From assembly GCA_010093995.1 (NCBI GenBank), contig ML992506.1, positions 430,832-494,831 of the forward strand: a stretch of DNA of 64,000 nt, read 5' to 3'. This document shows, piece after piece, positions 10,583 through 60,514 of the stretch. Source of the DNA: Elsinoe ampelina (lineage: Eukaryota). The position numbers and the translations under genes were made by a program. The notes beneath the pieces are model-generated. The model saw nothing but the letters and a program-made list of their open reading frames with translations, had not been told where the DNA came from and did not search any database. How positions within the stretch are numbered: the stretch's first letter is position 1; each line of letters begins with the position of its first letter.

Positions 10583-11820
10583 CTACTCACGTTGCCCCTT
10601 CTCTTCATCCACTCCATGGCCGGACATCTCCGACTCCATCAGCACCTGGCTAATCGATGGTATCGACATCTGCGAGACCAGCCTCCTTGTGTAGCATAAT
10701 TTCGGAACCTGGATATGCACACTCTCCACATCATCATCATCGTCCTCCCCCTCCTCTTCCGCCCTCGTGCTCAACGTGATATTAGGCAAAATCCCAATCC
10801 CGACCATCGCCCTACTATCAAACCGCAATGACTTCGTAGTCTCCGTCCCCTTCTCCGTAGCCAACAAATCCGCATCAGGATACACACTCGGCCGCCTCGG
10901 GGGCGACACCACCCCAGTCTCAATCCTCGACGGCCTACAAGTCACCCCGTCCCAAATCAACTTGAACAACGGCCTCAACGTCGCCATCGAAATCGCCAAT
11001 ATCGCCACCGTAGTCTCGACCAACGACAGCATAAACGACTTCGGGATCCGCTCGAAAAACATGGGCGTGAACGACAACTGCCCGAAATACGGCAACCGCA
11101 CGACGGACACGGCACTCCCCACCACCGCCAACCCAATCACGCACCCGGCTGAAACCCTCGACGCCCGGCTCAGCCCCTTGGCGGCGTGCAGCATCTGCAA
11201 CGGCACCACGGCGAAGATCCAATCGCAGAGACAATTGATCGACGCCACCGCGAAACCAAGCTTGATGATGGACGCGGAGCCGACGGCGCAGGCCTGATCG
11301 CTGAGAATGCGAGACGAGTCCAAGGGGAGGCGGCAGCGGAAGATGATGAGGTTGGCACCGACGGTGAGGGTGAGGACGTAGGCGCATACTGGGCCGATGA
11401 CGAGGATGCGTTGCCATGGGTAGAGGGCGATTTTGAAGAAGAAGCCTGCGATGACGATCTTGACGAGCGCGCCGGAGAGGACGTAGAAGGAGAAGGCGAT
11501 GAGGTAGGGCTGGGGGTGTTAGTGGTTGGGATGCTAAGGGGGGAGGTACGTACTGTAGCCCAGTCGTGGAAGAGGGCGGGGGACCGGGGGATGTAGTTGA
11601 TTTCATGCGTTTGGATGACTAGCCATATGATGGATGCTGTGCAGTTGATTAGGTGGCTGAGGATGAGGAGGATGTCGGTTTTGCCAAAATTTCTGGTGAT
11701 GCTTGAGCGGACCCAGATGCGAAGGCCGACGGCTATGGTGGTGATGAATTGGAGGACTGTGAGGATGACGAAGTAGGTGACGAAGTTCTCTCGATTCGCT
11801 TGCCATTCAACATATTGCAT
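10583..11820 (-). CDS. PTH11-like (fungal rhodopsin-domain) integral membrane protein, paralog 1
   Basis: AVGLRIWVR..FGKTD, intron 11553-11510, then KIVIAGFF..FRC, CDWIFAVVP, SVVRLPY and VETTVAILAISMATLRPL. About 7 hydrophobic segments. Confidence 0.85.
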
Positions 11821-12578
11821 GCTGGTGCTTGAGGCGGGGATGTGGTCGTGGCTTCCAGTGTCGTGAAGTACACAGAGCATCCACCAGCCAGGTACTCTCG
11901 TCGGAGACGTGGCGACTCTGTCTCAGGCTTGCTCGGGCGTGTCCAGAATGTGTCGAACGACGGGTTGGGCCTGGTTGTTTATAGGCGCCGTTAGGATCGT
12001 TGAAGCGGGACTATCGACAAGTTGGGGTTTCCAATTGCTCGTATATCTGACAGCATCGTCGTTGCACAACGGGCGTCATATGCGAAATTATTATCTGCGG
12101 TCGACCAGTTGTATCGCTACATTTCTACGATTCCAGAGAGTGGGATGGTCCGTGGGTATCGTTGGAAGACTCGACATAGGCCAAGACGATTCTTCCTGGA
12201 GAAGGCTGTGAAAGTGGTTCGTGGTCGAGACTCTGAGACCATGACAATGCTCACCGTTGACAAGATTCTGTTGAAGACTACAGTCTGGTCTCGACCAATT
12301 AGTGAATGTTGGGTGCACTCCGTGGAGGACGTTGCAAGAAGTGGTGTAGCATAATCATCTGTTCAGCAGCGTGATCCGCAAGATCTATCGACAATTTGGC
12401 CTTTGAGTGGGTCCAAGATTGTAGTGATACCAAGGCAGCCAGTCCCTTGACTTGTACAGTCACGATGACCATAGTCGCCGGGACAGAGGGCGACATAGTC
12501 ATCTTGCAAGCAAATTCGTAGCCCATGATACCAATTATTCTCCGTCCTCAATTCCCATGATACATAAATCATAAGTAC

Positions 12579-13754
12579 TTATTTCCGGCCTCGTTCATCC
12601 GCGCTGTAGAGTATCTCGGTGATGGTCGTCGTTCCCTTCATCATGTTCGTCGACCTTTGCGGAGCCTGTCTGGACAACTCCACTACGCTGCTATCATTCC
12701 GCTCGTCATGAAAAGACCCCATCCGAAGCGTGCTCGACATGGAGTTTGGAAGGACGCCGATGCCTCCCAGGACCTGTGAGTCGATCTGTACAGACTTGAT
12801 TCTAGAAGGATTGCCAGACTTATCGCTGCGTTGTTGATCTGCTGATGTGACAATCGGAGACGCCGAGCGAGGGGACGAAGATCCTATGCAGAGGACTCGG
12901 AGCAATGGCTTTAGGCAAGCTAGAGATATGGCAGTGATACCGACTGCAGTCTCGATAGTAGAGAGTATGAATGCGGGTGCGCTGTTTTCGAAGGTATTCG
13001 GGCCGAGGGTGCTACCACGAATGAAGGGTATCTTAATGATCGAGACTATAGTCCCGATATTAGCGACACCAACCACCATGTAAGCAGATGTTTTGCTGAA
13101 TCGACTCATCGATCTCGCTTTCCGCAAAAGCTGTATAGGTAAAATCGAAAATGTGAGATCGCAGACACTGCAAAGTGTAGCCATCATGTACCCAAGAGGC
13201 TCAATGACTCGAGAACCGATTGGACATGTCTCGTCTCGAAGGATCTTAATCGCCATGAGCGGTAGCCCGCATCGGAATAGAATGACGGTCATGGAAATTG
13301 ACAGGGCGCTGATATAGATTCCAAGCGGTGTCAGGACAATCCAGCGGTCAAGACGCCGCCGGGCCATCCGTAAGAAGAACATGGCGATAGCGATCTTGCT
13401 GAGTATGCCAGCTGTGACATACAGACTGATACCGATCCATGAACGCTGGAGCGAGTAAGCCGACATGACGAAACGATGAATGATTGCTCTTACAGCTATC
13501 AATGCTTGGAAAAGTTCTAAAGATCCAGGTGGGTATTTAGTCGATTTGACCCGGCTGTCAAGCCAGATGATGTTTGCCACAGTGTTGAACGTGTGGGCGA
13601 CAATGAGCATAGTGTCGTCCTTTGCGAACGTCCTTGTCAGCTTCCGCCGTACATAGATGCGTGCTGAAAGCGCCAATGTCGTAATGATCTGAAGGACGAC
13701 CGAAACGGAGGTATAGACGGCAAAGTGCGCATTCTTCCCTCTCAACTCGCTCAT
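12579..13754 (-). CDS. PTH11-like (fungal rhodopsin-domain) integral membrane protein, paralog 2
   Basis: ALSARIYVR..FAKDD, probable in-frame 48-nt intron 13493-13446, then KIAIAMFFLR, CDLTFSILP and IETAVGITAISLACLKPL. Confidence 0.85.
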   Translation of the reverse strand: MSELRGKNAHFAVYTSVSVVLQIITTLALSARIYVRRKLTRTFAKDDTMLIVAHTFNTVANIIWLDSRVKSTKYPPGSLELFQALIAVRAIIHRFVMSAYSLQRSWIGISLYVTAGILSKIAIAMFFLRMARRRLDRWIVLTPLGIYISALSISMTVILFRCGLPLMAIKILRDETCPIGSRVIEPLGYMMATLCSVCDLTFSILPIQLLRKARSMSRFSKTSAYMVVGVANIGTIVSIIKIPFIRGSTLGPNTFENSAPAFILSTIETAVGITAISLACLKPLLRVLCIGSSSPRSASPIVTSADQQRSDKSGNPSRIKSVQIDSQVLGGIGVLPNSMSSTLRMGSFHDERNDSSVVELSRQAPQRSTNMMKGTTTITEILYSADERGRK

Positions 13755-14427
13755 GGTCGGCGAGTCCACCGACTTATCTGCGGTGCTGGCTGTTGCTTTG
13801 CGGTGTCATTGCTGTCGCATCTTGTCTTCTCAAGTCATCTCAAGCCATTGTCGGCCTCGTAGATGGGATGTTTCAAATTGTTGTCATCACGGATGCCGGT
13901 AATAAGGATAGGCTTGCATGATGTGGAGCCGTTGGGCTTTACTTCCACAAACCAACATGGTGGCCACAACGGTGTTGTAACGCTGAGAGGATCGTTACGT
14001 ATTTCGTATTGAAGTTTGATCGAGGGCCCTGTCGCTTGATTAGTGGATTTGTCAGGCGCAGTCGTGGTTCGTGGTCCTTTCGGAAGAGTGGATATTCCGT
14101 TATAGTTCTTGAATGCAAGAAGTCGACACGACTGACCTCCCCAACAGTATGTACTTCTGTTGAAACAACCCTTTGGTTGCGGGCGCACACAGATGTGGCC
14201 GCCACATATCGGCCGATCATATACTAAGCAGAGTCTTGCGGAAATGGCAAATTCTGTCGACATACGAGATTATCATTGATGTAAAGACGTGGCGGTAAGG
14301 GGTATCTGGCCAACGCTGGACTATCCAAAAGGGCTGCAAACACCAAAACGCCAGTCCGTGTCCTTCATTAGTAGGCTATACTCTCGCTCAATGCTAGCCC
14401 GGCGTGGATCATCCGGTCCAAGCTGTT

Positions 14428-22562: not shown

Positions 22563-22638
22563 TGTCTCCCACAGCCTGTGTCACAACAGACCTGTCCATA
22601 GCCTTCCCTATCCAGCATCAAATAGACACCCCTCCTCC

Positions 22639-23201
22639 TCAACCCCCCTTCTCCCCTCCCTCATCCAACCACCTCACCACCTCCCCCGCGCTCTTATCCG
22701 GCGGAAAAACGGGATACCAAACCCTCACCACCCTCCCCTCCCTGACCGCAAGCGTCATCCTCTTAATCAACCTCCGCCCCCCAAACTCAAACGTCGGCAA
22801 CCCCAACGCCCGCGCAAACTCCAGCTTCTCATCACTCAGCAACTCATACGGCAGCCCCAACCTCCCCTTCGCTTCCCTTTGGTACTCACTCCCCTGCGTA
22901 CTCAACCCATACACGTCTTCCACGCCCTTGCTCTTCAGCTCCTGATACGAATCCCGGAACGAGCACGCTTGCGGTGTGCAGCCCCTCGCGCCGGGGATGG
23001 CGTTCCACGAGTCAGGGATGGTTTCGCCGGGGGCGCCGGTGCGGGGGTAGATGAAGATGATGGTCAAGGGGATGAGGGTGGAGGGGTCGAGGGTTGTGGA
23101 GGCGGTGGTGGGGAGGGGGAGGGAAGGGAGGAGGGCGCCGGGGAGGTGCGAGGTGGCGCCGTCGTCGTGGGGGGTGGGGATGGATGCGGGGATGGAGGTG
23201 T
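22639..23201 (-). CDS. Peroxiredoxin/redoxin (AhpC-TSA, BCP-like); 5' exon(s) unresolved
   Basis: DDGATSHLPG..FIYPRTG..ARGCTPQACSFRD..YGLSTQ..LPYELLSD..KRMTL..YPVFPPD. An in-frame stop at 23229 means an upstream intron is required. Confidence 0.82.
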
Positions 23202-23631
23202 CTGGGGGAAATGTGAGAGGGGGGACTTACTCGGTGGGAGGGGGACCTACGGGACATTGGTGCGGTGGGGGCTCCGGGGGACAGGTACAGGGGAGGTTGT
23301 GCCTGGCGGAGTGGTGAGAATGGGGTTGGGGATGGTGGAAGGGCGAGAGTGTGTGATGGAAGAGACATGCGATTCCACGTGCTTGGGGAGATACAGTAGC
23401 GGAGCTATGGCCCCCTGTTCATCTCGCAGATCGGGATCTTTGTCGAGGTGATGCGATGATGACATTTGGTCAACGCCGATTTGTCCGGTGCGGGGCCCAA
23501 TCAGGAGCTGGCCAATGCAAGTGATGTCGACACACCGATCTCATACATAATCGAGGTGAAGGCATCACGGGTTCAGTTTTTGCTTGTACATCTTCATTGA
23601 GGACTTTGTCAAGTATTCTTGCAGTTCTTTC

Positions 23632-25501: not shown

Positions 25502-26436
25502 GCAATGACGAGACGGCCGACAAATTGTTAAGGCGCCTGGGCATGGCGATAGTGGTATAGCATCAGACATTTGCATAAAATTTCACCGATGACAGATACA
25601 TATGAACTATGGAGCTTTGTAGTCCGTGAAACATGCCAAGGCACAGGCGCCAACGAGAAGATGCAAGTGGCAGCGGTTTTAACCAAGCCGCCTGCAGGTT
25701 TAACCAGAATGCGGCGCACAAGGCTCAAGCGCGTGTGCCTCCCGTCGTTGAAAGGTGCCCCTCAATCTATCTCTTCTCTGTGCATCCCACGGAGCAATGC
25801 CGGCTGATCATGTCACCACTCGGAAGATCGACTCTACGACTCAAGCATTCGCACCATCTGTCAAAACGAGACGGGCCATGGTCCGATTTCTACGCCCGGC
25901 CCGCTGGGCCGTACCAGAGCCATGGTACGATGCGTTGAAGCAATCACGAGGAATGAACAAGTCATTTTCGTCAATCAGGGACCATCCTTCGAAATCGCAT
26001 TTAGCCGAGCCGCCGCATTGAGAACGGAAGAATTGACCCCAAATTGAGCTCCTCAGCTCCATCAGAACCATTGATGAGCCTCTCAGGCGTGTCGTCTCAG
26101 AACCTGAACGCTCCCGGAGATGTCTCCTCCGCGCCTGTTCGGTGCATCCTCGACTCCACCGACAGACACTCATCCCGTCCAGCAAATTCTCCAGGGTGTA
26201 CCTCTTCCGTACACGTAGATATTCCACCTGCCTCCGACCCTGTTCCTCTTCGACTCAGACGCTCCCCCTCGAGTACAACGAGAGAAGGAACATATATATA
26301 ACCGCCCACAATAGCACTCACCTTCCACTTCCTCTCGCAACTCGCGTCTCTGTTCCCCCCGCCTCCTCCCCCAGGGTCCACCACAACCCCTCCCCCGCAC
26401 CATCTGCCCCTCCACCAAACACCACCAACCAACAAA

Positions 26437-27990
<1,554 letters not shown>

Positions 27991-29298: not shown

Positions 29299-30996
29299 AT
29301 GAGCGTTTCCGACGACGAGAAGAAGGCGCCAGAAGGCCATCATGGGGCGCTTACTTACAACAAAAATGAAGCAGATGAGGGTGTCATCATCAATGCGTCG
29401 GGTCACAAGCAGGAGCTCGATCGGTATGTGACACGGCAGCGGCGGCAGCGTCAAGGAAAACACACTTACATGTGACCAGGAATTTCTCCCTCCTTTCCAT
29501 GTGCGCCGTCGGCATTGTGACGGGTAATGCATGGGCAGCGCTCGGTGGTTCCATCTCCCTTGCCTTGTTCAACGGAGGTGCTCCCGGCGTCATCTACGAG
29601 TTCATCGCCGTTTCCGTCTTCTACTGGATCATCACCGCTTGCCTTGCCGAACTCGCCAGCGCCATCCCTTCCAGCGCCGGCGTCTACCACTGGGCATCCG
29701 TGACCGGTGGCCGCAAATGGGGTAAGAGCCTGAGTTGGTTCGCCGGCTGGTGGAACTTCTTTGCCTGGGTCTTTGGCGCAGCATCCCTCTCCAGCATCCT
29801 CGCCAACCAGGTCATAACCATGTGGATGCTGTTCCACCCAGACTACACCCCTCAACCCTGGAACGTCTTCATCGTGTACGTCCTCGTAACCTGGGCCTGC
29901 ACCGCCACCGTCCTCTTCATGAACAAACAACTCCCCGCCCTCAACAACGTCATGCTCTTCCTCATCCTCGCAGGCGTCTTCATCACCATCCTCGTCTCGG
30001 CCATCATGCCCTCCACCACCGGCTCCGGCTATGCCACCAACCGCGCCGTCTGGAGCGATTGGCAAAACGGCACCGGCTGGCCCGACGGCTTCGCTTTCGT
30101 AGCAGGCATGCTCAACGGCGCCTTCGCCGTCGGCACCCCCGACTGCTGCACCCACCTCGCAGAAGAACTCCCCCGCCCGCGCACCAACATCCCCAAAGCA
30201 ATGGGCATCCAAATGGCCACCGGCTTCCTGACGACAATCTGCTACATCATCGCCATCTTCTACTCCATCAACGACTTCGCGGGCGTGACCGACGCCGGCT
30301 TCCCCAACCCCCTCGGCGAAGTCTACCGCCAAGCCACCTCCTCCCGCGGCGGCTCGTTGGGCCTGCTGATCGTCATCTTCCTCCCCACCCTGGGGACTTG
30401 CATCGGCGCCTACATCACCGCGGGCCGCATGCTGTACACGCTCGCGCGCGACGACGCCACGCCCTTTCCCGCCTGGACGAAGCAGATCCACCCGCGGCAC
30501 CGCAACCCGTTCAACGCCACGCTGGTGTGCGCCGTCATTTGCACCGTGCTGGCGGCCATCCAAGTGGGCAACACGACGGCGTTTGCGGCGTTTGTGGGCA
30601 GTTTCGTGGTGCTCACGACGGCGAGTTTCGTGTGTGCCATCGGGCCGCATTTGCTCACTGGGCGCAAGTACGTGGTGCCTGGACCGTTTTGGATGCCCAA
30701 GGCGGTGGCGACGCCGTTGTTGGCGATTGCGAATGCGTACATTGTGTGTTTTATTGTGATTTTTTGTTTCCCGGCCGCGTGAGTATATCCTTGAAGACAT
30801 TTTGGGGGGAATAAGGGGCTAATGATGTGGTAGGTTGCCTTTTGATGCGGCGACGATGAATTATGTGTCGGTTGTCATTAGTGGGATTACCTTGTTCATC
30901 TCGATATGGTGGTTTGTCAAGAGTAAGAGTGGCTATGTTAGTCCGACGGAGCAGGTGATGAAGAGTATGGGCGTGGTGGATGTGGATGATCATTAG
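29299..30996 (+). CDS. Amino acid/choline/GABA permease (APC superfamily, ACT family)
   Basis: NASGHKQELDRNFSLLS, LAELASAIPSSAGVYHWAS, HLAEELPRP and ARDDATPF. About 12 TM segments. Introns 29424-29479 and 30779-30833. Confidence 0.92.
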
Positions 30997-31249
30997 CAAT
31001 TAGTGCCGCTCATGGATGTGGGTGGTGTTTTTGATTCTCTTGAAGATGGGATAGAGGAATAGAGATTTTGTTCGTCTGTGATCTGTATCAACAACGCAAA
31101 GGACAAGACATCGAATTATCTGCGTATGGTCTTGACAGACCCACTGCCGTCCTTCACATCAGTTATCTTTTCAGGTCATCCTCAACCATACCACGTGCTC
31201 TGCCATGCCATGACCTCGGTGTCTCACCCAAGGGTTCAGCCTGAAGTGC

Positions 31250-31335: not shown

Positions 31336-31548
31336 CAGTGAGCCAGGGAGAGGTGAGTGCTCGGTGAGCTCATATTTACTGGAATTCGACCGACAATTTC
31401 TTTACCCTTGTCGTTTGCACTTGTCCTTGTCGTTGCACTTCGAGAATCTGATCCAGGAATCCACACGAGTAGCACTGTTCGCAGAGCACAAGAGGAGCAC
31501 ATTCTACACCATCGACGAGCAGGTATCACCAGACTCGGCACTGCAAAC

Positions 31549-41372: not shown

Positions 41373-42103
41373 ATGGTCGTGGAGAGTGTGAGGGCGAGCA
41401 TGTTGGGGGAATTTGTGTTGATTTATGTAGCTAAGAAAGGAGCTGGAGGGGTGTGGCAATGGTGATATGTGACTAATGACTTGTAGGGAGATTTTCGGGT
41501 CATTTTAGTCAAGAAGGTCATCAAGGGAGGAGGGAGAGTGCGCAGGTTGGACATGTTGGATCGTGGTATTGGGGCGGGGGCGGGCAGGGGTTTTGAGGTG
41601 GATCATGCGTGATGCTTCGGATGGATAGTCGGGAGCTGGGCTCGATATCTACTGGTGGGATGACGGGAATGAGAATCTCCTTGATGGTGTTTTCCATATT
41701 GTCTCCCGTTTGATCAATTATGATGCATGCCAGGGCCCCCATATGGCTGGGAACATGGCAGACTCTATCAGCTTGATGTGGACGATGTCTCTCGTGAGGT
41801 ATGGCAAGGACAAGGATTACTGTGTAGTCGTCCTGAGCCTGTCTCCAGTGCCCGAGTTCTGCATTGAGAAGCAAACGGGCTTACAGAGATATCCCTAAGG
41901 TACGGTTCTCAAAGTGCTCTTTTTCACGACCAAGCTATGCGAATCTATCAACAAGAAATCCTCCACCCCTCCGTCCCACCCAAACGCCATCCTACTTTTC
42001 CACGCCTCTCTTTCAACCAGCCATACCGTCTCCCACCCCTCCAAACCCCCCTCACACGCTCCGTCAAATCTCACCCGCACTGACCGTCCACCCACTCCAC
42101 ACC

Positions 42104-44608
42104 TCACTCCCCCCTCCCCACATTCGCCTTCTTCGCCAACAAATTCAACGCACTCCCAGCAAGCACAAACCCACACTGGCCCTCAGTCAACGTATGCCTC
42201 GTCTCGACCCTCCTCTCCACCCCATCCCTCCCCTTGACCACAAGCGCCACCTCCCCCTCCCCACCGCTCCGCAGCACATCCCACAACCCCTCCGTCCTCA
42301 CCTCATCCCCGGCCCGCACGACGTCGAAATCCCCCTCGTGTTTAAACGTGAGCGGCACCACGCCCTGCTTCTTCAGATTCGTCTCGTGGATGCGCGCGAA
42401 CGATTTGGCGAGGACGACGCGGGCCCCGAGGAACCGCGGCTGGAGCGCGGCGTGTTCCCGCGCCGAGCCCTCGCCGTAGTTGTGCTCTGCCACGACGAGC
42501 CATTCTTGGCCCCTGTCGCGCCATTTTTTGGCCAGGGCCGGGATGCCCATGCCGGCCTTTTTGGTTTCGAGGTCGGGAATGTCGTACACCGTGTTGGTCT
42601 CGCCTGTTTCGGCGTTGATGGCGCCGATGAGCGTGTTTTCGCTGATGTTGGGCAGGTGGCCTTTGTATTTCAGCCAGGGACCAGCGGCCGAGATGGTGTC
42701 GGTCGTGCATTGTCCGCGGACTTTGGCGAGGACGCGGAGGGAGGTGAGTTCGCCTGCTGGGAAGGGGGGGAAGGGGTCGAGGATGGCGAGGCGGGTGGAG
42801 GTCGGGGAGATGACGACTTTGGTGGAGGGGTTTGGTTGGGCGGGGGTTGGGTAGAAGGCAGGGTTGCCTTTGGCGAAGCCGGAGGAGGGGAGGTCTTGAC
42901 CTGTGGGTGGGGAGAAGCGGAAGGTGGAGCCTGAGGGGAGCGGGATGGAGTCGGTCATGGGGTTGAAGGTGGTGCTGCCGGAGTAGGACATGGCGGTGAC
43001 GAGTTCGGGGGAGGCGAGGAAGTTCATGGTCTTGGTGTTGCCGTCGTTGCGGCCGCGGAAGTTGCGGTTGTAGGAGGTGAAGATGGCGTTTTCTTCGCCC
43101 TTGCTGACGCCGTCGGTACGGTTCCACATCCCAATGCAGGGACCGCAGGCGTTGGCGAGGACGACACCACCAGCAGAGGAGAAGGTGTCGAGAGTCTGAT
43201 CTCGGTCCAGCGTCGCGCGAATCTGCTCGCTGCCTGGGGTGATGAAGAAGTCTGCTTTGGGCTTGAGTCCTGCAGCAGACGCTTGCTTGACGAGAGACTC
43301 TGCGCGGGTCATGTCCTGGTAGGAAGAGTTTGTGCAGGATCCGATCAAGCCAGCTCCGAACGTCTCTGGCCATTCATTTGCCTTGACCAAGTCTGAGAAC
43401 TTGGAAAGAGGTGTCGAAAGGTCCGGTGTCATTGGTCCGTTGATGTGTGGTTCAAGCTTGCTCAGATCAATCTCAATGACCTGATCATATTCAGCTCCCG
43501 AGTCGGGTCGCAGAAGGTTGTGTGGGCCTGGTGAAGACGCAATCGTTGCCGCTGCTGTCGCTATCGATCCTCTGCCCGTGGCCTCCAAATATGGTATGTG
43601 AGATGGCGAGAAAGGGAAGATCGACGTCGTAGCACCCACTTCGGCGCCCATATTACACGCTGTCGCCATTCCTGTGCATGATAGTGTCTCTACACCGGGT
43701 CCAAAGTACTCCAGGATATAGCCAGTGCCTCCTCGTACGGTCAGCTGACCAGCAAGATACAGAATGATGTCCTTTGGACTAGCCCAGCCAGAGAGCTGTC
43801 CCGTAAGACGAACGCCCAGTATCTTCGGTGCCTTCAACTCCCAGGGCGCGTCGACCATGGCGTCCACAGCATCTGCTCCTCCCACACCAATAGCAATCGC
43901 TCCAAGACCTCCAGCGTTCGGTGTGTGACTGTCCGTGCCTAGCATCATAAGGCCCGGCGCACTGTAATTCTCCAACACAGTCTGGTGGATAATCCCTGCT
44001 CCTGGCGGCCAGAACTCGATCCCATACTTGAGCGCCGCACTCTCCAGGAAGTCGAAGACCTCCTTATTACCCTTGATCCCCTCCGGAAGATCCACATCCG
44101 CGCCCCGCTCGCCGACAATCATGTGATCGCAGTGTATACTAGCCGGAACAGCTGTTGTAGGTAGACCGCAGGACATGAATTGAAGGAGAGCCATTTGCGC
44201 CGAGGCATCCTGCATGGCCACCCGGTCAGGTTTGAGCTTGAGGTTGGCTTTTCCTCGGATGTCTGCGCCATTGTTCGTGCCTGTTAATAACGACTCTTCC
44301 GGGTTGTCGAGATGTGAGTAGAGGATCTTTTCTGCCAACGTGAGGGGTCGTGTGGGGAGTAGTCGGCGGACTTCGTGCAACCGCTTGAGGAGTTTGGGAT
44401 ATGGAGGCGTCCTCTGCTTGAGCTGGGTCTCTGAAAGTGCAGCTGCCGTGTCCGTCGTCGTGGCGAGACATCTCCTTGAGGGAAGCTGGGACGTATAGTG
44501 TGTCGCGTGCTGGAATAGTCAATCAATGTGTTGTCTGCTGCGCAATGTGGTACAGCTTACCTTGCTGACCGGCCTCACTGCAGTCTTCAGAACTCGCGCT
44601 TGCACCAT
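42104..44608 (-). CDS. ACO2: Mitochondrial aconitase-family protein, ACO2 (homocitrate dehydratase)-type
   Basis: Presequence exon 44608-44561, intron 44560-44510. Motifs LTLAEKILYSHL, DRVAMQDASAQMALLQF, IHCDH, GTDSHT, IGSCTNSS, ANACGPCIG and NYGEGSAREHAA. The QDASAQ and TTDTIS variants favour the ACO2 type over ACO1. Confidence 0.88.
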
Positions 44609-50813: not shown

Positions 50814-51154
50814 TGGCTTTACCATTGGTATGCAGAAATGACCAAATATTGAATTGATTAACCACCATCACTACCGTAATCCACTCGGTTGCGATTTCCC
50901 GTTCCCCCTGCTCAACTCCGATTCCGTATCTTGAACGGTTGAAAATTTCCTATTTCGAACTAAAACTCCGAACGAACCCCCTCAACACACCCATGTAGGG
51001 CGCGCGGTGATTCGACCGCCCTTATCTCTCGTCACCGCTCGTGTCATCAACAATGAGCACATTAGCACCTGTCATAACCCTCCATTGTGTCATATAAGTG
51101 TATCTACATGAGTCTCCTTTCCTCTACCTCCCACCATCCGCCCACAACCACACC

Positions 51155-52655
51155 ATGGCCCGCCTCCCCCCTCTCACCCCCATGCGGGCTGCCATCCTGC
51201 ACCACCCCACCTCCCCCACCGACGAAGAAATCGACCTCGACCTGTCCCCGACCACCCCGACCACCCCCAACACCAACCCCTTCGCATCCGGCGCCCAGAC
51301 TCCCACGGGCCACGACCCCACCCTCCCAGCACACTTCTCCCTCCCCCCGGCCGACGGCGGCAAAGACGCCTGGCTCGTCCTCCTAGCCTGCTTCATCCTC
51401 GAAGCGCTAGTCTGGGGCTTCCCCTTCGCCTACCCCGTCTTCAACGACTACTACCACACCCAGCCCCAGTTCGCGGGGCAGACGTCGGCCATCGCGGCCA
51501 TCGGCACGACGCAGACGGGCATCATGTACTTTGGGGCGCCGGTGGTGTACGGCGTGTTGCGCAGGTGGCCGAGGTTGAGGAAGCCGGCTTGCGTCGCGGG
51601 GTTTGTGGTGTTGGAGGCGGGGCTCGTGGCGGCGAGTTTTGCACAGACGATACCGGGATTGTTGGGGACGCAGGGGGTGTTGTTTGCTGTTGGGGGGTGT
51701 GTGCATTATTTGTGAGTTGGGAAGTTTTTTTTTCTCTTATTTGGTTCCCGGGTTGGTGGTGGTGGGATGTGAAGCTGACCGAGTGTGTAGCCCTGCTTTC
51801 CTCTACCTTGATGAGTGGTTCTTCGCTCGCAAGGGGCTCGCGTATGGTGTCGTCTGGGCTGGGACTGGTGTCGCGGGTGTTGCGCTACCGCTGACGTTGC
51901 AGTGGATTCTGCGTACCTGGGGCCATCAGACGGCGTTACGGACGTGGGCTGTTGTTTCCCTCATCCTGACTCCGCCGGCTGTCTTCTGTCTCAAAGGACG
52001 TTTGCCGGTGCAACACGCCCCGAGGGGACCGCAGAGGGTAGAGACTGGGTTTCTGAAAAGTAGAGCGTTCTGGATCTTGCAGATGGGTAATGTCGTGCAG
52101 GGACTTGGCTATTTCATGCCGACCCTGTATATGCCTTCGTTCGCGCGCGCTGTAGGACTCGGAGAGATCCAAGGGACTGCAGCTGTGAGTTTGACCAACG
52201 CGAGCACGGTGATTGGGACGATTGTGGCCGGGTGGTTGACTGATCGGTATCATGTTACCACGGCGGTCAACTTCTGTGCTGTGGGGACCGTGGTGGCGGT
52301 ATTTTTGTTCTGGAGCTTCGCAGTGTATACACCGGTGCTGTATATCTTTGCGATCTTGTATGGCATCTTTGCTGGAGGCTTCGCGGCGACCTGGTCAGGC
52401 GTGGCTACAGTCATGAGAGGGAGGTGGCCTGCGACGGAGACCGGGATGATTATTGCCCTGTTCGCGGCAGGAAAGGGCGTGGGGAGTGTTATTAGTGGAC
52501 CGTTGAGTGGTGCCATTGTGGATGCGAGATGGTTCGCGAGTGGGAGAGACTGGGCTTGGGGAAGTGGATATGGCGGGCTGATCATGTTCTCCGGCGTTAC
52601 TGCTGCCGTGACAGGAACTGGATGGTGTGCGAAGAAAGTTGGATGGGTGCCCTGA
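51155..52655 (+). CDS. MFS monocarboxylate-transporter-like protein
   Basis: LPPADGGKDAW..EALVWGF, intron 51712-51790, then YLDEWF..RKGLAYG, GLGYFMP and GWLTDR. Confidence 0.9.
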
Positions 52656-54942: not shown

Positions 54943-55238
54943 TGATGGTCACAAATCTTCTCGACCGACCAAATATTTCCGTCCATGGACTGGACATAGG
55001 GAACAATTAGCGATGTCGAGTGTACAAAATTCATGTATAAAAATGACCAGACCCACCCAGCTTTTGTTCTGGAACCTTTTTTCCTCCACCGCCACATCCA
55101 CCCACCCAAACTATAGCTTGACCTAATGCACAAGCTAGACCATTAGTATTGATATCACTCATCTGTATTTATATCGTAGCTAAGTACCATCTCTCTTTCG
55201 CATCTGCGTTTCTCTCATCAAAGCATTCCTACCACAAC

Positions 55239-56133
55239 ATGTCCTTCCTCGCTCTCGAAGGCCTCCACGCCTTCGTCACCGGCGCCGCAGGAGGCATCGG
55301 CTCAGAAATCGTGCGCGAACTCCTATGTAAGGTATCCCCCTTGCCCTCCTCCTCACAGCACCTGACCCTCCCGAGGCAATGGCTGCAAAGTCACCGCCCA
55401 CGACCTCCGCCCCATCACCTGCCTCCCGCCCTCCCCCAACCTCCACCTCGTCTCAGGCGACATCTCTTCCGAACCCTCCATCACCTTCTGCATCGCCTCA
55501 GCCTACACCCACTTCGGCCCCATCTCCCTCCTCGCCGCCAACGCCGGCATCACCAACGAGCAATCCCACCCCAACATCTGGGAAATGCCCGTCGAGACAT
55601 GGGACAACGTCTACCGCGTGAACGTACGCGGGACGTTCCTCACGATCAAACACTTCTTGCTTTGCGCGAAGGAGCACCAAGACCGCACCGGCGAGCTTGT
55701 GCGGAATCTCAGCATCGTCGTCACGGGATCCGAGTGTGGTGTTTTCGGGCAGGCGGGGCACAGCGAGTACGCGTCTGGTAAGGCGGGGTTGCAGTATGGG
55801 TTGGTGTTGACGGTGAAGAACGAGATTGTGAGGCTGAATCCGAGGGGGAGGATTAATGCTGTGGCGCCGGGGTGGGTGGATACGGAGTTGATTGGGGATC
55901 GCTTGGATGATGAGAGGGAGTTGTATATGGAGAGTCAGGGGACGGTGCCGTTGAGGAAGATTGCGAGGCCGGAGGATGTGGCGAGGATGGTGGCGTTTTT
56001 GAGCAGTGAGAGGGCGGCCGGGCATGTGAGTGGGCAGTGTGTGAGTGTGGATGGGGGGATGGAGGGGAGGATTGTGTGGAGGGAGGAGGAGGTGATGGGG
56101 AGGGTGGATAAGGGGGGGAATGTGAGGGGGTGA
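55239..56133 (+). CDS. Short-chain dehydrogenase/reductase
   Basis: VTGAAGGIG, ANAGI, VNVRGTF, YASGK (YxxxK) and INAVAPGWVDT. Probable intron 55327-55375. Confidence 0.9.
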
Positions 56134-56462
56134 GGGTTGGGATGGTCATGTACATGTTCAACTTCACGATGTGTTCGTATGATGTGTGTATCAGAGCTTA
56201 TTATGATCTGTACTGAGCATCATTCACTGTCACGTGACAGAAGTGGCGATCTTGTACTGTTCAGGCAACTCCGAACTCCATCCTCTTCCCCTCACCATAT
56301 CTCGTGCCACCACTCCGCCTCGTAATCCCACACCAAACATGTAACCAGCTGGTAGTATCTTCTCCCATGCCTCTTTCCCAGACTCCTTACCACTCCTAAT
56401 CCCCAAATCCCGAAGTCCTCCTGCTTCAGTGCATCATCACCACCCATCCATCCACAACCACA

Positions 56463-57506
56463 ATGCCCCCCCTCCCCCGCCTCCTCCTCACCGGCCCCCC
56501 CTACACCCTCGGCCACCAACACGGCACCTCCCTCCGCCCCGCCATCCACCGCACCATCGCCTTCTACTCCACCCTCTTCCTCTCCACCACCCAAAAAACC
56601 TGGCCGGAGATCCTCTCCCTCGCCTCCCTCTTCCTCCCCTTCATAAAATCCCACCTCCCCTCCCTCCTCACCGAAATGCAAGGTCTCGCCGACGGCGCCC
56701 AGCGTGACCTCCTCGAGATCATCGCCATTAACGTCCGGACCGAGATCAATTTCGGGCTGTTCAGTGATGGGTGTACGGCTGTGGGGTGGACGGAGGGGGG
56801 GCAGGGAGAGGGAGGGAGTATCCTCGCGCAGAATTGGGATTGGATGGAGGAGCAGAAGGAGAATCTCGTTTTGCTGGATGTGAGGGGCGAGGGGAAGGTG
56901 AGGTTTCAGATGGTGACGGAGGCCGGGTTGGTGGGGAAGATAGGGATGAATGAGAAGGGGGTGGGGGTGTGTTTGAATGCGATTAGGAGGAAGGGCATGG
57001 ATGTGGGCAAGTTGCCGTGTCATTTGGCTTTGAGGGTGGTGTTGGAGTGTGAGAGTCGGGAGGAGGCGGTGGGGAGGCTAGAGAGTTGGGGGGTAGCAAG
57101 TGCGTGTCATATGCTGGTTGGGGATGGGGAGGGGATGGTGGGATTGGAGTGGAGTAGCGAGATGGGGAGGAGGATAGAGATGGATGGGAAGGGGAGGGTG
57201 TTTCATAGTAATCATTACTTGCATGATGATATGAAGGAGGGAGATACGATGTGGTTGAAGGACAGCGGGTTTAGGGTGAAGAGAATCGAGGAGCTTTGTG
57301 ATAAGCTCGAGGCGCCGACATTGGAAGGTGTGCAGGGGCTGTTCACAGACGAGGAGAACTATCCGGCGGCCATCTGTAGAAAGCAGGAAGGAGACGTGAC
57401 GTCTGCTACGCTTTTCAACATAGTAATGGACCTGGAAGCGAAAAAGGCGAAGATACTCTTAGGAAGACCAGTGGCGCCAGAGGATGAGGTTGAAATCAGT
57501 TTCTGA
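56463..57506 (+). CDS. Peptidase C45 / acyl-CoA:6-aminopenicillanate acyltransferase-like Ntn hydrolase
   Basis: INVRTEI..DG|CT autocleavage site, AQNWDW, TEAGLVGKIGMN and HSNHY. Confidence 0.9.
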   Translation: MPPLPRLLLTGPPYTLGHQHGTSLRPAIHRTIAFYSTLFLSTTQKTWPEILSLASLFLPFIKSHLPSLLTEMQGLADGAQRDLLEIIAINVRTEINFGLFSDGCTAVGWTEGGQGEGGSILAQNWDWMEEQKENLVLLDVRGEGKVRFQMVTEAGLVGKIGMNEKGVGVCLNAIRRKGMDVGKLPCHLALRVVLECESREEAVGRLESWGVASACHMLVGDGEGMVGLEWSSEMGRRIEMDGKGRVFHSNHYLHDDMKEGDTMWLKDSGFRVKRIEELCDKLEAPTLEGVQGLFTDEENYPAAICRKQEGDVTSATLFNIVMDLEAKKAKILLGRPVAPEDEVEISF

Positions 57507-57619
57507 TGTTGTAAATAGCGAGGATGTAATGATATGCTGTAACATGCTGCTCCTCTTGTTCTTCATGGTTCCCAGCAACACTGCACCTTTATCATGGCTT
57601 ACTCAAGTAACGTAGCTTG

Positions 57620-58774: not shown

Positions 58775-59339
58775 TTATGAACTCGACTCGCCGCCCTCTG
58801 CTGGCACTAACACTTCCTTCTCCTCGAATAGCTTTGCAAGTGACCCATCCTGGTGCATCGACATCAAGATGTCCGTTCCTCCGACAAACTCCTTATCGAG
58901 GTAGAGTTGGGGTATCGTGGGCCACTCTGAGAACTCTTTGATTCCTGCGCACGCGTCAGCTATGCCCCATTTTCGATTTGACGTTCCGTTCTCACCGGCT
59001 CGTAGCTCCTCGTCCTCCAGTACGTTGAAAGCAGAGAATTTCTGCGGATCCACGCCCTGAAGTCCCAAGATCTGAATAGCTGCCCTGCTGAAACCACACT
59101 GCGGAGCTTCCGGCACGCCCTTCATGAATAGTACAACCGGAGATGATGCTACGGCTCTCTCGATGGCCTTGCGAGTAGAATCGGACAGGAGTCGCTGCTG
59201 TAGAGTGTTGAAGCGGGTGGAAAGTAGAGGATTGTATCTCGGTCGGAGCGCAGAGCGGAAGACCTGTGAACATCAGCATTCGCATCTCGAGCGGTCTATC
59301 AGTATCTCCTACCACTCCAGTAAGTGTTCGCGACGCCAT
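58775..59339 (-). CDS. GRX5: Mitochondrial monothiol glutaredoxin (CGFS)
   Basis: Presequence, then VVLFMKG..PQCGFSR, GIKEFSEWPTIPQLY and FVGGTDI. Introns 59312-59264 and 58995-58945. Confidence 0.95.
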
Positions 59340-59538
59340 ATTTAGTGTTCCTCACTTGTGTCGAGATGTTTGTAATCAGAGAAAGAAGCACCTCCGAAAT
59401 CTTTGAGCTTCACTCCGCAAAAGCTTCCATCGAAATGACGCAACCATCAACATTTCCAATCACCCGTATCACAACACAAGGTAGCATTGCTCACCTCACT
59501 TCTCCACTTCGCTTCCCATTTTTCTCTCCTCAGTCCTC

Positions 59539-60420
59539 ATGCCCTTCCAACACGCGAACCACCTGCCCCCCCACCCTCTCCCTCCTTCACCCTCCCCTGC
59601 CCCCCCCTCTCCCACACCTCCCTCCAACCCCCCACAACCCCCCCCTCCCTTCCGCGCCTCCTCCCACACCTCCCCCCACCCTCACCTCCTCCTCGCCTCC
59701 ACCGGTTCAGTAGCAACAATCAAACTCCCCCTCATCCTACACGCCCTCGCCCCCTACCACCTCTCCATCCGCCTCCTCCTCACCCCCTCCTCCCTCACCT
59801 TCCTGCAATCCCAACCCCCCCAACAACCCCCCCTCCCCTCCCTCCTCTCCTACCCAAACGTAGACGGCATCCACCTCGACGCCGAAGAATGGTCCCCGCC
59901 CTGGACCCGCGGTGCGCCCATCCTGCACATCGAGCTGCGCCGCTGGGCCGACGCTATGCTCGTCGCGCCCTTGTCAGCGAATACCATGGCGAAAATGGTC
60001 GCGGGCCAAGCGGATAATCTCGTCACGAGCGTGTTGCGGGCGTGGGACACGGCGGGGGCGATAGATGGGACGGCGGAGGGGAAGGAGCGCACGCGGACGA
60101 AGGGGGGGAAGAAGAGGGTTTGGGTCGCGCCGGCTATGAATACGGCCATGTGGGGGCATCCGGTCACGGGGCGACAGATGGCGGTGTTGAAGGGGGAGTG
60201 GGGAGAAGAAGTAGGCGGGTGGGTGAGGGTTTTGGGGCCCGTGGAGAAGGGGTTGGCGTGTGGGGATGTGGGGGCGGGGGCGATGGTGGAGTGGGGGGAG
60301 ATTGTGAGGGAGGTGGTGGCGGGGTTGGGGTTGGTGAGGAAGGATGAAGGGGGAGGGGAGGTGGTGGATGAGAGACGGGGTGGGAAGGAGGGAGATGTGG
60401 ATGGTGATGGTCAGGGGTGA
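59539..60420 (+). CDS. Phosphopantothenoylcysteine decarboxylase (HFCD flavoprotein, Hal3/Cab3 family)
   Basis: LLLASTGSVATIKLP, ILHIELRRWAD, APLSANTMAK, APAMNTAMW and LACGDVG. Both the catalytic His and Cys motifs are present. Confidence 0.9.
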   Translation: MPFQHANHLPPHPLPPSPSPAPPSPTPPSNPPQPPPPFRASSHTSPHPHLLLASTGSVATIKLPLILHALAPYHLSIRLLLTPSSLTFLQSQPPQQPPLPSLLSYPNVDGIHLDAEEWSPPWTRGAPILHIELRRWADAMLVAPLSANTMAKMVAGQADNLVTSVLRAWDTAGAIDGTAEGKERTRTKGGKKRVWVAPAMNTAMWGHPVTGRQMAVLKGEWGEEVGGWVRVLGPVEKGLACGDVGAGAMVEWGEIVREVVAGLGLVRKDEGGGEVVDERRGGKEGDVDGDGQG

Positions 60421-60514
60421 AGTGTGGATTGTGGTCTATGGACTGGATGAAATTGTGGAATATCACAGATGGACCTCCGCTCTGACGCCAAAGGACTGGA
60501 AAAGTCAAGAGACC

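What the first reader, a model, noticed from the sequence alone, without database searches (positions are those of the whole stretch)
10740..60430. Recurrent sharp C/A-to-G/T strand-skew flips, about 13 in 50 kb, independent of gene orientation
Seen: the + strand repeatedly shows a few hundred bp of C/A-rich sequence followed abruptly by a few hundred bp of G/T-rich sequence. Approximate switch points (by eye) are 11300, 22970, 26640, 30500, 31850, 36990, 37560 (intergenic), 41190, 42500, 51500, 55720, 56750 and 60000. The polarity is always C first, then G. It occurs in + genes, - genes and intergenic DNA, at 5', middle or 3' positions. Third codon positions switch from C to G/T within single ORFs, while long genes such as the ABC transporter and Tcp11 look flat. 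Known: an upward GC/TA skew jump is the signature of bidirectional replication origins. Inference: these are footprints of a localised bidirectional strand-asymmetric process (replication initiation, break repair or recombination hotspots, or R-loop/G4 sites). I do not know of a named feature for them.
Basis: partly seen in the sequence, partly recalled or inferred. Interest (0 to 1): 0.72.

Follow-up and report, generated by a model that had tools for sequence, protein, structure and literature searches.

The report
Gene-anchored C-to-G skew flips, fungus
Many genes in this Elsinoe-like fungus are written almost without G in their first part and almost without C in their last part, an extreme case of a known, unexplained fungal pattern that follows transcription units rather than replication origins or break sites.

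Summary
The 13th reaches 0.54, which equals the highest value in 50 shuffles.

The independence from gene orientation is a symmetry effect. On the coding strand, every skewed gene runs from C-rich at the 5' end to G-rich at the 3' end. That pattern reads as C then G on the + strand for genes of either orientation.

- All 12 flips lie inside gene spans, while 9 of 13 opposite flips lie between genes.
- The skew is strongest at silent sites. Four-fold sites are C 0.74 / G 0.05 in one zone and G 0.68 / C 0.10 in the other.
- It also holds in introns and UTRs, and it stops within about 100 nt outside the likely transcript ends.
- The two zones are mirror images in base composition.
- The aconitase dyad recurs at the same position in divergent, non-syntenic fungal orthologues.

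This is an extreme instance of the "opposite GC skews at 5' and 3' ends of fungal genes" of McLean and Tirosh (2011). My best reading is a strand-asymmetric mutation pressure bounded by the transcription unit. Origins, break hotspots, GRINS and assembly artefact are poorly supported. The scan has noted gene-anchored skew sawtooths before on other DNA (e1-5666717).

The parts
10600..11658 (-). Dyad over a fungal-rhodopsin-domain gene (minus strand). On the + strand it is C-skewed on the left, has a G-block at 11432-11658, and flips at 11257.
   Evidence: Coding-sense position-3 skew runs from -0.85 to +0.82.
22595..23396 (-). Dyad covering the whole peroxiredoxin (Redoxin) gene. C-block 22595-22913, G-block 23030-23396, flip at 22943.
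   Evidence: (position-3 skew -0.92 to +0.87 in coding sense).
26257..27153 (+). Dyad over the 5' UTR and first exon of the GH1 beta-glucosidase gene. C-block 26257-26464, G-block 26795-27153, flip at 26632.
29560..31045 (+). Weaker dyad over the amino-acid permease gene. There is a long C-skewed body (block 29886-29994) and a G-block at 30848-31045 after the stop. The flip at about 30545 reaches only 0.54.
   Evidence: (position-3 skew -0.76 to +0.52).
31548..32245 (+). Dyad over the zinc alcohol dehydrogenase gene. C-block 31548-31712, G-block 32141-32245, flip at 31820.
34800..37260 (+). Gene for a disordered protein (ORF 35254-37125). The body is C-skewed. The G-zone covers the last ~45 codons and the sequence after the stop (37044-37260). 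Flip at 36951.
37320..37886 (-). G-block 37593-37886, flip at 37581. It overlaps a possible 88-codon minus-strand ORF (37503-37767) whose 5' part would be the C-rich arm.
   Evidence: The ORF was read by eye and is not verified by RNA or homology.
40920..41641 (+). Dyad at the 3' end of the HMG-box gene. C-block 40920-41078 (also A-rich), G-block 41263-41641 running into the 3' UTR, flip at 41200.
41942..43250 (-). Dyad over the last ~1.1 kb of the aconitase gene and its 3' UTR. The + strand C-block is 41942-42329 and the G-block is 42714-43036, with the flip between 42337 and 42500. The 5' 1.4 kb of the same ORF is flat.
   Evidence: The position is conserved in fungal orthologues.
51075..52603 (+). 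Dyad over the MFS transporter gene. C-block 51075-51341, G-blocks 51596-51751 (including the intron at 51712-51790) and 52466-52603, flip at 51467.
   Evidence: (intron).
55041..56182 (+). Dyad covering the short-chain dehydrogenase gene. C-block 55366-55553 (the intron at 55327-55375 is also C-skewed), G-block 55772-56182, flip at 55692.
56291..57320 (+). Dyad over the AAT-family acyltransferase gene. C-block 56291-56691, G-block 56785-57320, flip at 56753.
59441..60475 (+). Strongest dyad. It covers the whole phosphopantothenoylcysteine decarboxylase (Flavoprotein) gene with its likely UTRs. C-block 59441-59887, G-block 60095-60458, flip at 60026.

Best explanation
The dyads are transcription units, or roughly 1-kb stretches that end at a transcript end, of an Elsinoe-like Dothideomycete. 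Their upstream part has been driven towards C (and A over G) on the coding strand. Their downstream part has been driven towards G (and T over C). This is an extreme form of the gene-anchored 5'-C / 3'-G skew described for fungi in general.

I read it as a DNA-level, strand-asymmetric mutation and repair pressure linked to transcription. One and the same pressure enriches G (then T) and removes C on the exposed, unrepaired strand. It acts on the coding strand near the 3' end and on the template strand near the 5' end.

A plausible chemistry is inferred, not shown. Cytosine deamination and abasic sites arise on the single-stranded non-template strand. The abasic sites are bypassed by Rev1/Pol zeta, which inserts C opposite them, while the transcribed strand is cleaned by transcription-coupled repair. 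The strand switch would come from antisense transcription over the 5' zone. Once a G-rich non-template strand favours R-loops, the process could reinforce itself.

Shown here: anchoring to genes, action at neutral sites, mirror symmetry, sharp outer edges and conservation across fungi. Inferred: that the pressure is mutational, its chemistry, and the role of antisense transcription.
For: 1. Coding-sense polarity is the same on both strands. 23 of 26 gene spans have higher skew in the last 350 nt than in the first 350 nt. Position-3 skew runs from about -0.9 to +0.9 in + genes (SDR, AAT, PPCDC, GH1, ADH) and in - genes (Prx, Rhod1, aconitase 3' part).

2. Flips are tied to genes. 12 of 12 up-flips lie inside gene spans (8.6 expected, P=0.012). 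Only 4 of 13 down-flips lie inside (9.3 expected, P=0.003; circular shifts).

3. Neutral sites carry the skew.
- Four-fold sites are A .13 C .74 G .05 T .07 in C-zones and A .10 C .10 G .68 T .12 in G-zones.
- Two-fold R sites are 72% A in C-zones, against 38% in flat genes, even though GC3 is high there.
- Two-fold Y sites are 79% T in G-zones, against 36% in flat genes.
- Non-coding pieces: SDR intron -0.48, MFS intron +0.58, aconitase 3' UTR +0.76, PPCDC 5' leader -0.70.

4. Mirror symmetry. The complement of the G-zone composition (.12 .68 .10 .10) is close to the C-zone composition (.13 .74 .05 .07). The two-fold preferences are also complementary.95/.79 against .92/.72.

5. The profile is box-like, strongest near the outer edges, and falls to about 0 within 100 nt outside.

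6. The same positional pattern appears at four-fold sites of aconitase in fungal metagenome loci of 62-84% amino-acid identity.
- Bins at residues ~470-670 average about -0.5, with 0-4 of 41-42 loci positive.
- In the last bin 19 of 38 loci are positive, with values up to +1.0.
- All-site skew in 34 non-identical loci is -0.30 at [-900,-600] (0 of 34 positive) and +0.23 at [-150,0] (28 of 34 positive).
- No locus shows the window's neighbouring genes.

7. Published yeast genetics, passages read in PMC6063437:
- Rev1/Pol zeta insert mostly C opposite abasic sites.
- Transcription-coupled repair clears the transcribed strand.
- R-loops leave the non-transcribed strand unpaired and raise T>G changes there.
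Against: - No strand-specific RNA, TSS or R-loop data were available. Antisense transcription over the C-zones is therefore an assumption.
- In aconitase, the amino-acid permease and GH1, the C-zone or G-zone is not at the gene end. It sits next to the flip. A simple model of two pressures entering from the two ends does not explain that.
- Neighbouring genes differ greatly in amplitude, from 0 to 1.5. I found no explanation for this. The two adjacent rhodopsin-domain paralogues are one skewed and one flat.
- Mirror symmetry would also arise if the two halves were selected to be complementary in composition.
- Gene spans are my approximations. One of them, the 'small' gene, was drawn with knowledge of the skew.
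- The zone classes were defined by local G/C skew, so the G and C frequencies there are partly circular. The A/G and C/T choices are only partly independent of that definition.
- I have no polarised substitution data, so mutation bias is not separated from selection or biased conversion.
Confidence: 0.55

Rival explanations
1. Selection on the transcript or on transcription. One version is a G-poor 5' part and a C-poor 3' part chosen to control R-loops and termination, Pol II speed (the CTP-limitation idea of McLean and Tirosh), or local RNA structure. Another version is 5'/3' compositional complementarity that lets the transcript fold back on itself.
For: - The skew is bounded by likely transcript ends and includes introns and UTRs. 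That fits a pre-mRNA or transcription-level target.
- Predicted minimum-energy folds of dyad transcripts are one giant fold-back. For PPCDC, 287 of 341 pairs join the two halves.
- The position is conserved across fungi at saturated silent sites.
- McLean and Tirosh propose an adaptive variant (Discussion read).
Against: - The fold-back is a by-product of composition. Within-half shuffles give as many cross-half pairs. Reversing either half changes the energy by 0-5%. Within-half dinucleotide shuffles give z of -1.6, -2.3, +0.1 and -2.9.
- G4 motifs number 19, fewer than the 28 expected from local composition.
- The CTP idea predicts more C at the 5' end. It does not predict replacement of G by A at R-ending codons (72% A).
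- Quantitative mirror symmetry of all four bases is not expected from most RNA-level targets.
- Protein sequence is dragged along: P is 17.7% in C-zones and G is 14.6% in G-zones. That looks like a cost rather than a design.
Confidence: 0.2
2. Divergent cryptic transcription starting from a GC-rich, CpG-rich centre inside the gene, as at mammalian bidirectional CpG-island promoters. Each arm's non-template strand would become G/T-rich.
For: - The polarity fits the standard transcription-associated signature on both arms without extra assumptions.
- Centres have GC 0.60-0.70 and CpG observed/expected of 0.84-1.36.
- Dyads in aconitase and GH1 are roughly 1-kb units that do not span the whole gene.
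Against: - Centres lie in conserved coding sequence.
- Contigs of two runs that carry spliced joints run straight across the aconitase and AAT flips (records 9, 13 and 15).
- Fungal promoters are, from general knowledge, AT-rich and nucleosome-depleted rather than GC-rich.
- The skew is weakest at the centre and strongest at the outer edge.
- I have no TSS data.
Confidence: 0.08
3. Recombination or double-strand-break hotspots at the dyad centres. Error-prone fill-in synthesis, or strand-biased mismatch repair, would enrich G/T on the newly made strands, and GC-biased conversion would raise GC3.
For: - GC3 rises to 0.75-0.95 within dyads, against 0.5-0.6 elsewhere.
- Arm lengths of 0.3-0.5 kb are of the order of resection tracts (recalled, not checked).
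- The polarity fits if the resynthesised strand gains G and T (inference).
Against: - The effect should decay away from the break. It is instead strongest at the outer edges and stops at transcript ends.
- Deamination of the 3' overhang predicts the opposite polarity (inference).
- The centres lie inside genes. The same position recurs in non-syntenic aconitase orthologues of many fungi.
- Flips are tied to gene spans.
Confidence: 0.07
4. Bidirectional replication initiation sites at the dyad centres, producing a leading/lagging-strand skew jump.
For: The two arms are mirror images.
Against: - The skew returns to about 0 within 0.4-0.6 kb instead of persisting along a replicon.
- The density is about one per 4 kb.
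- The dyads are anchored to genes and transcript ends.
- The position is conserved within the aconitase gene across fungi without synteny.
Confidence: 0.04
5. GRINS-like elements, that is, repeats of intense nucleotide skew spread by gene conversion.
For: Intense local skew is strongest at third positions, and G/V/W-type versus P/T/H/Q-type amino acids shift with it. This matches the description of GRINS (PMC8256042, sections read; compare).
Against: The defining repeat criterion fails. A self-BLAST of the window gives 0 non-self matches of 300 nt or more at 80% or more identity. The only non-self match is 112 nt at 71%. The dyads lie in unrelated single-copy genes.
Confidence: 0.02

Closest known systems
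Opposite GC skews at the 5' and 3' ends of genes in fungi (McLean and Tirosh 2011, BMC Genomics, PMC3315797; abstract, Background, Results part 1, Discussion and data-set list read)
   Same: - The coding strand is C-biased at the 5' end and G-biased at the 3' end.
- The pattern is present at four-fold sites and in UTRs.
- It shifts amino-acid usage.
- A and T change little overall.
- It is seen in most of about 60 fungi, including filamentous Dothideomycetes.
- The cause is unresolved.
   Different: - The published pattern is a weak genome-wide average. At most 33% of C. albicans genes are individually significant.
- Here single genes reach silent-site skews of +-0.9, with one sharp flip, box-like zones and abrupt outer edges.
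- Genes here fall into skewed and flat classes.
- There is a clear keto/amino signature at two-fold sites (A for G, T for C) and T>A in 3' zones. The authors argued against a role for C-to-T changes.
- Some dyads cover only about 1 kb of a longer gene.
[quoted passage not shown] 2021, PNAS, PMC8256042; outline, discovery section, Discussion and passages read)
   Same: Both show intense, abruptly changing and correlated G/T versus C/A skew inside functional coding sequence. The skew is strongest at third positions, and the same amino-acid shifts follow it.
   Different: GRINS are by definition duplicated regions (over 500 bp, over 80% identical) in bacterial PKS clusters linked to gene conversion. 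The dyads here are single-copy, lie in unrelated genes, and have a fixed 5'-C to 3'-G order.
GC-skew classes of human CpG-island promoters and terminators linked to R-loops (Ginno et al. 2013, PMC3787257; only the search listing and the start of the abstract seen)
   Same: Both show GC-rich, CpG-rich regions with strong local GC skew tied to transcription units. Both include positive skew at 3' ends.
   Different: In humans the non-template strand is G-rich downstream of the TSS. Here it is C-rich at the 5' end. R-loops were not tested here.
Replication-associated strand skew of bacteria and mitochondria (general knowledge)
   Same: Both show G/T against C/A asymmetry with an upward jump. The silent-site amplitudes are comparable to animal mitochondria.
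   Different: Replication skew extends over whole replichores and follows fork direction. Here it lasts 0.3-0.5 kb per arm and follows transcription units.

Membership tests
Fungal intragenic opposite GC skew (McLean and Tirosh 2011) | Coding strand C-biased at the 5' end and G-biased at the 3' end, for genes on either strand | tested here: met
   23 of 26 gene spans have last-350-nt skew above first-350-nt skew. This holds for 11 of 12 minus-strand and 12 of 14 plus-strand genes. See for position-3 profiles.
Fungal intragenic opposite GC skew (McLean and Tirosh 2011) | Present at four-fold degenerate sites | tested here: met
   Four-fold sites are C .74 / G .05 in the 5' zones and G .68 / C .10 in the 3' zones.
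Fungal intragenic opposite GC skew (McLean and Tirosh 2011) | Extends into UTRs and non-coding transcribed DNA | tested here: met
   5' leaders are -0.53 to -0.70. Sequences after stop codons are +0.19 to +0.76. Two introns inside zones are -0.48 and +0.58. Values are about 0 beyond these pieces.
Fungal intragenic opposite GC skew (McLean and Tirosh 2011) | Shifts amino-acid usage along the gene | tested here: met
   P is 17.7% in C-zones against 5.3% in flat genes. G is 14.6% and V 10.5% in G-zones against 6.6% and 6.7%. PPCDC has a P-rich N-terminal extension and a G/E/V-rich tail.
Fungal intragenic opposite GC skew (McLean and Tirosh 2011) | Shared across fungal species | tested here: met
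   Tested for one gene only. Aconitase orthologues in fungal metagenome loci show a C-zone and then a terminal G-zone at four-fold sites.
Replication-origin skew jump | Skew of one sign persists along the replicon on each side of the origin | tested here: not met
   The skew returns to about 0 within 0.4-0.6 kb of each flip.
Replication-origin skew jump | Position set by the replication programme, not by genes | tested here: not met
   Flips are tied to gene spans. The position is conserved within aconitase without synteny.
Replication-origin skew jump | Mapped initiation (nascent strands, ORC/MCM) | not testable with these tools
   No such data are available.
GRINS | Region over 500 bp that is over 80% identical to another region nearby | tested here: not met
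   0 such matches in the window self-BLAST.
GRINS | Intense and correlated GC and TA skews, strongest at third positions | tested here: inconclusive
   The GC skew is intense. The TA skew is clear in the G-zones but weak in the C-zones.
R-loop-forming GC-skewed promoters and terminators (mammalian type) | Non-template strand G-rich downstream of the TSS | tested here: not met
   The coding strand is C-rich from the likely TSS onward. Only the 3' zone is G-rich.
R-loop-forming GC-skewed promoters and terminators (mammalian type) | RNA:DNA hybrids detected over the skewed region | not testable with these tools
   No DRIP-type data are available.
Recombination hotspot with GC-biased gene conversion | Local GC3 peak centred on a break site and decaying outward, with no required link to transcript ends | tested here: inconclusive
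   A GC3 peak is present. However, the skew is box-like and bounded by transcript ends. There are no recombination data.

The most novel reading that the evidence does not exclude
In the Elsinoe lineage, a transcription-coupled damage and bypass process has run away in a subset of genes. The process would be single-stranded non-template DNA in sense R-loops near 3' ends and in antisense R-loops near 5' ends, with cytosine deamination plus Rev1-type C insertion opposite abasic sites. Each G-enriched strand favours further R-loops. Nuclear genes are thereby pushed to mitochondria-like silent-site skews of +-0.9, and new proline-rich N-termini and glycine-rich C-termini are written into proteins. 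If so, the dyads are a natural read-out of where sense and antisense transcription end, and they give a handle on the unexplained fungal intragenic skew described in 2011.
Probability: 0.22. Interest if true: 0.75.

Novelty: new member of a known kind. Interest (0 to 1): 0.45.

Why it matters
The cause of the 5'-C / 3'-G skew in fungal genes has been open since 2011. In most species it is only a weak average. Here it is strong enough to see gene by gene, with sharp edges, a single flip and flat neighbouring genes as built-in controls. This lineage is therefore a good place to test whether transcription-coupled mutation, antisense transcription or R-loops cause it.

Practical consequences:
- Position in the gene overrides codon preference. 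A replaces G, and T replaces C, at two-fold sites.
- Position also shifts protein composition towards proline-rich starts and glycine/valine-rich ends.
- These effects will bias codon-usage indices, dN/dS estimates, phylogenetic models, gene prediction and low-complexity filtering in such genomes.

It is also a warning for skew-based origin hunting in eukaryotes. A gene-anchored pattern that is its own reverse complement mimics an orientation-independent upward skew jump.

Tried and rejected
- Whole genome: none is held for this window. The metagenome records behind the loci could not be searched. No genome-wide metagene was therefore possible.
- Sequencing runs: no RNA holder is listed. All laid runs are contigs, so they give no strand, no transcript ends and no usable expression ranking. 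I did not use contig depth to compare skewed and flat genes.
- Strain differences cluster in the flat Ima1 region. Only 4 places fall in dyads, too few to polarise substitutions.
- Inverted repeats or transposon origin: self-BLAST found no reverse-strand or direct repeats.
- G-quadruplex selection: 19 motifs, against 1.9 in whole-window shuffles but 28 in 200-nt-tile shuffles. This is a by-product of composition.
- Specific 5'/3' RNA complementarity: not beyond composition.
- CpG depletion or methylation footprint at centres: CpG observed/expected is 0.84-1.36.
- Directional amino-acid replacement in PPCDC against outgroup majority. The 5' half has 13 changes, with net G -3.5 and C +5.0 at codon positions 1-2. 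The 3' half has 7 changes with no net shift. This is weak and inconclusive.
- Literature: only McLean and Tirosh 2011 describes the pattern. Three other papers in the library hold both search phrases ('Opposite GC skews', 'unicellular fungi'), and none is about this. A search for 'Elsinoe' plus 'skew' found nothing relevant. Two searches failed on term format.
- Supplements of McLean and Tirosh (Figures S1-S3) were not opened.
- Structure prediction, complex prediction and RNA-family tools were not relevant and were not used.

Full report
**What is there**

The window has 53% GC. Its genes are those of a filamentous ascomycete. Pfam hits include 2EXR, the fungal rhodopsin domain, AAT, GH1, aconitase, Tcp11, Alg14 and others. 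The phosphopantothenoylcysteine decarboxylase (PPCDC) encoded at 59539-60420 is closest to proteins named Elsinoe batatas (81%), E. fawcettii (79%), Sphaceloma murrayae (73%) and Myriangium duriaei (66%). The window therefore comes from an Elsinoe-like member of the Myriangiales, Dothideomycetes.

- I measured the flip as skew in the right 300 nt minus skew in the left 300 nt. There are 12 up-flips of 0.6 or more, and 9 of 0.8 or more.
That equals the highest value in any of 50 shuffles of the window, where the mean maximum was 0.41.
- The blocks are extreme. For example, 59441-59887 has 249 C and 31 G, and 60095-60458 has 200 G and 29 C (sequence seen).
- All 10 C-blocks are followed by a G-block within 94-854 nt. 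Only 3 of 10 have a G-block within 900 nt upstream (coordinates, arithmetic mine).
- Contigs of a DNA run and of three other runs from three other studies carry GT..AG spliced joints and reproduce these regions with 0-3 differences. An assembly artefact is unlikely.

**Why orientation does not matter**

Read on the coding strand, every skewed gene runs from C-rich at the 5' end to G-rich at the 3' end.

- Position-3 skew goes from -0.96 to +0.91 in PPCDC (+), from -0.88 to +0.90 in AAT (+) and from -0.96 to +0.91 in SDR (+).
- It also goes from -0.92 to +0.87 in the peroxiredoxin (-), from -0.85 to +0.82 in the first rhodopsin-domain gene (-), and from -0.96 to +0.60 in the last third of aconitase (-).

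A 5'-C / 3'-G pattern is its own reverse complement. It must therefore read 'C then G' on the + strand for genes of either orientation.

Across 26 approximate gene spans, 23 have higher skew in the last 350 nt than in the first 350 nt. This holds for 11 of 12 minus-strand and 12 of 14 plus-strand genes.

**Anchoring to transcription units**

- All 12 up-flips lie inside gene spans (8.6 expected under circular shifts, P=0.012). Only 4 of 13 down-flips do (9.3 expected, P=0.003).
- 6 of 13 down-flips lie within 100 nt of a CDS-span end, and 9 of 13 within 150 nt.
- These spans are my approximations from ORFs, Pfam, a codon-usage score and eight introns seen as spliced joints. One small minus-strand ORF (37503-37767) was recognised only after I had seen the skew.
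- In 100-nt steps the profile is box-like. For PPCDC it is -0.07 | -0.70 -0.86 -0.78 -0.88 -0.31 +0.08 +0.51 +0.55 +0.88 +0.90 | +0.10.
- The skew is strongest towards the outer edges and vanishes within about 100 nt. This is the reverse of what a process spreading from a central origin or break should leave.

**Neutral sites and mirror symmetry**

| Site class (coding strand) | 5' C-zones | 3' G-zones | Flat genes |
|---|---|---|---|
| Four-fold sites | A .13 C .74 G .05 T .07 | A .10 C .10 G .68 T .12 | C .31 G .25 |
| Two-fold R-ending codons | 72% A | 95% G | 38% A |
| Two-fold Y-ending codons | 92% C | 79% T | 36% T |

The pressure in the 5' zone is therefore not simply 'more GC'. G is replaced by A while T is replaced by C, and the converse holds in the 3' zone.

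The complement of the G-zone composition (.12 .68 .10 .10) is close to the C-zone composition. The zone classes were defined by local G/C skew, so the G and C values are partly circular. The A/G and C/T choices and the symmetry are the informative part.

Non-coding transcribed DNA behaves the same way:
- SDR intron -0.48 and MFS intron +0.58.
- PPCDC and AAT leaders -0.70 and -0.61.
- Aconitase 3' UTR +0.76.
- The next 240 nt beyond the aconitase 3' UTR -0.05.

Protein composition follows. Proline is 17.7% in the 5' zones. Glycine is 14.6%, valine 10.5%, arginine 8.7% and glutamate 8.6% in the 3' zones. PPCDC has a proline-rich N-terminal extension and a G/E/V/D-rich tail, both shared only with the E. 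batatas protein among 12 aligned.

**Conservation across fungi**

A scan of metagenome contigs with the aconitase protein gave 66 loci. About 44 of them are fungal, at 62-84% identity.

- Using four-fold sites only, residues ~470-670 are C-skewed in almost all. Means are about -0.5, with 1 of 42, 0 of 41 and 4 of 41 loci positive in the three bins.
- The last 67 codons swing towards G. 19 of 38 loci are positive, with several between +0.6 and +1.0. Some loci are duplicates of one another.
- Pooled two-fold sites show the lowest A share at R sites (0.22) and the highest T share at Y sites (0.52) in the last bin.
- In 34 non-identical loci, all-site skew is -0.30 at 900-600 nt before the end of the protein match (0 of 34 positive). 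It is +0.23 in the last 150 nt (28 of 34 positive), +0.16 in the first 150 nt after the match, and about 0 beyond.
- The window shows the same shape at two to three times the amplitude.
- None of the loci carries the window's neighbouring genes in its 1.5-kb flanks. The pattern therefore belongs to the gene, not to its chromosomal neighbourhood.

**What it is**

This is the phenomenon McLean and Tirosh described in 2011 from about 60 fungal genomes, including filamentous Dothideomycetes.

- In their account the coding strand is C-biased at the 5' end and G-biased at the 3' end.
- The pattern is present at four-fold sites and in UTRs, and it shifts amino-acid usage.
- The cause is unknown.
- There it is a weak average. 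Here it is extreme in some genes and nearly absent in their neighbours, with amplitudes from 0 to 1.5.
- My searches found no account of such amplitudes, nor anything on Elsinoe.

**How it most likely works**

The mirror symmetry, the action on introns and UTRs and the sharp transcript-bounded edges point to one strand-asymmetric DNA-level process linked to transcription. It would act on the coding strand in the 3' zone and on the template strand in the 5' zone.

The composition of the 'exposed' strand is G much greater than T, then A, then C, with raised GC. That is what cytosine deamination plus abasic-site bypass would give.

Passages read in PMC6063437 report the following for yeast:
- Rev1/Pol zeta insert mostly C opposite abasic sites.
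- Transcription-coupled repair clears the transcribed strand.
- R-loops expose the non-transcribed strand and raise T>G changes there.

The switch of strand in the 5' zone would need antisense transcription, or some promoter-proximal state that exposes the template strand. I could not test this. It remains inference.

**What does not fit neatly**

- In aconitase, the permease and GH1, the strongest C-zone or G-zone lies next to the flip rather than at the gene end. The dyad there looks like a roughly 1-kb unit attached to one end of the transcript.
- I found nothing that separates skewed genes from flat ones. The two adjacent rhodopsin-domain paralogues differ completely.

**Rivals**

- Selection on the transcript or on transcription is the main rival. 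The predicted fold of a dyad transcript is one long fold-back, but shuffles within halves, reversal of halves and dinucleotide shuffles show this to be a by-product of composition. G4 motifs are fewer than local composition predicts.
- Replication origins fail on scale, on gene anchoring and on conservation within a gene.
- Break or recombination hotspots fail on the box-like, edge-heavy profile and on gene anchoring, although GC3 is raised.
- GRINS fail on their defining repeat criterion.

**Verdict**

It is an extreme new instance of a known, unexplained fungal pattern. It is of moderate interest, mainly as an exaggerated natural model for finding the cause.

Noticed in passing
window 6950-8650: An AT-rich island (GC 0.19, down to 0.10 per 100 nt) sits between genes of normal composition. 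Its TpA/ApT ratio is 1.52 and its (CpA+TpG)/(ApC+GpT) ratio is 0.15. These values are typical of repeat-induced point mutation.
   Followed up: partly
window 48021-50106: Runs X4 and X7, which have different organism labels, share about 20 differences from the window. Most are transitions, and there is also a 9-nt deletion at 48165. All lie in and upstream of the flat Ima1 gene. Almost no other differences were listed elsewhere in the 20 kb laid, though most of it is covered only thinly in these runs. This could be a locally divergent haplotype.
   Followed up: no
window 10586-11650 and 12582-13805: Two adjacent minus-strand fungal-rhodopsin-domain paralogues differ sharply. One has a full dyad and GC3 of 0.70-0.88. 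The other is flat with GC3 of 0.47-0.69. They form a natural control showing that the amplitude is gene-specific and not regional.
   Followed up: partly
window 57239-57506: A contig of run X3 that covers the minus-strand genes at 57623-59350 has an adaptor-flanked end at 57239. That point lies inside the last ~270 nt of the plus-strand AAT ORF. The AAT G-zone also fades at about 57320. This suggests overlapping convergent transcripts.
   Followed up: no
window 59539-59650 and 60330-60420: PPCDC carries a proline-rich N-terminal extension of about 35 residues and a G/E/V/D-rich C-terminal tail. Among 12 aligned homologues these are shared only with the E. batatas protein. Low-complexity protein ends appear to have been written by the skew.
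   Followed up: partly
window 41029-41062, 42363-42400, 56447-56492, 59811-59851, 60358-60394: Short pieces of 34-40 nt from other contigs of the same runs match the C- or G-blocks with 3-5 mismatches. Similar low-complexity C-rich and G-rich sequence therefore occurs elsewhere in this genome.
   Followed up: no
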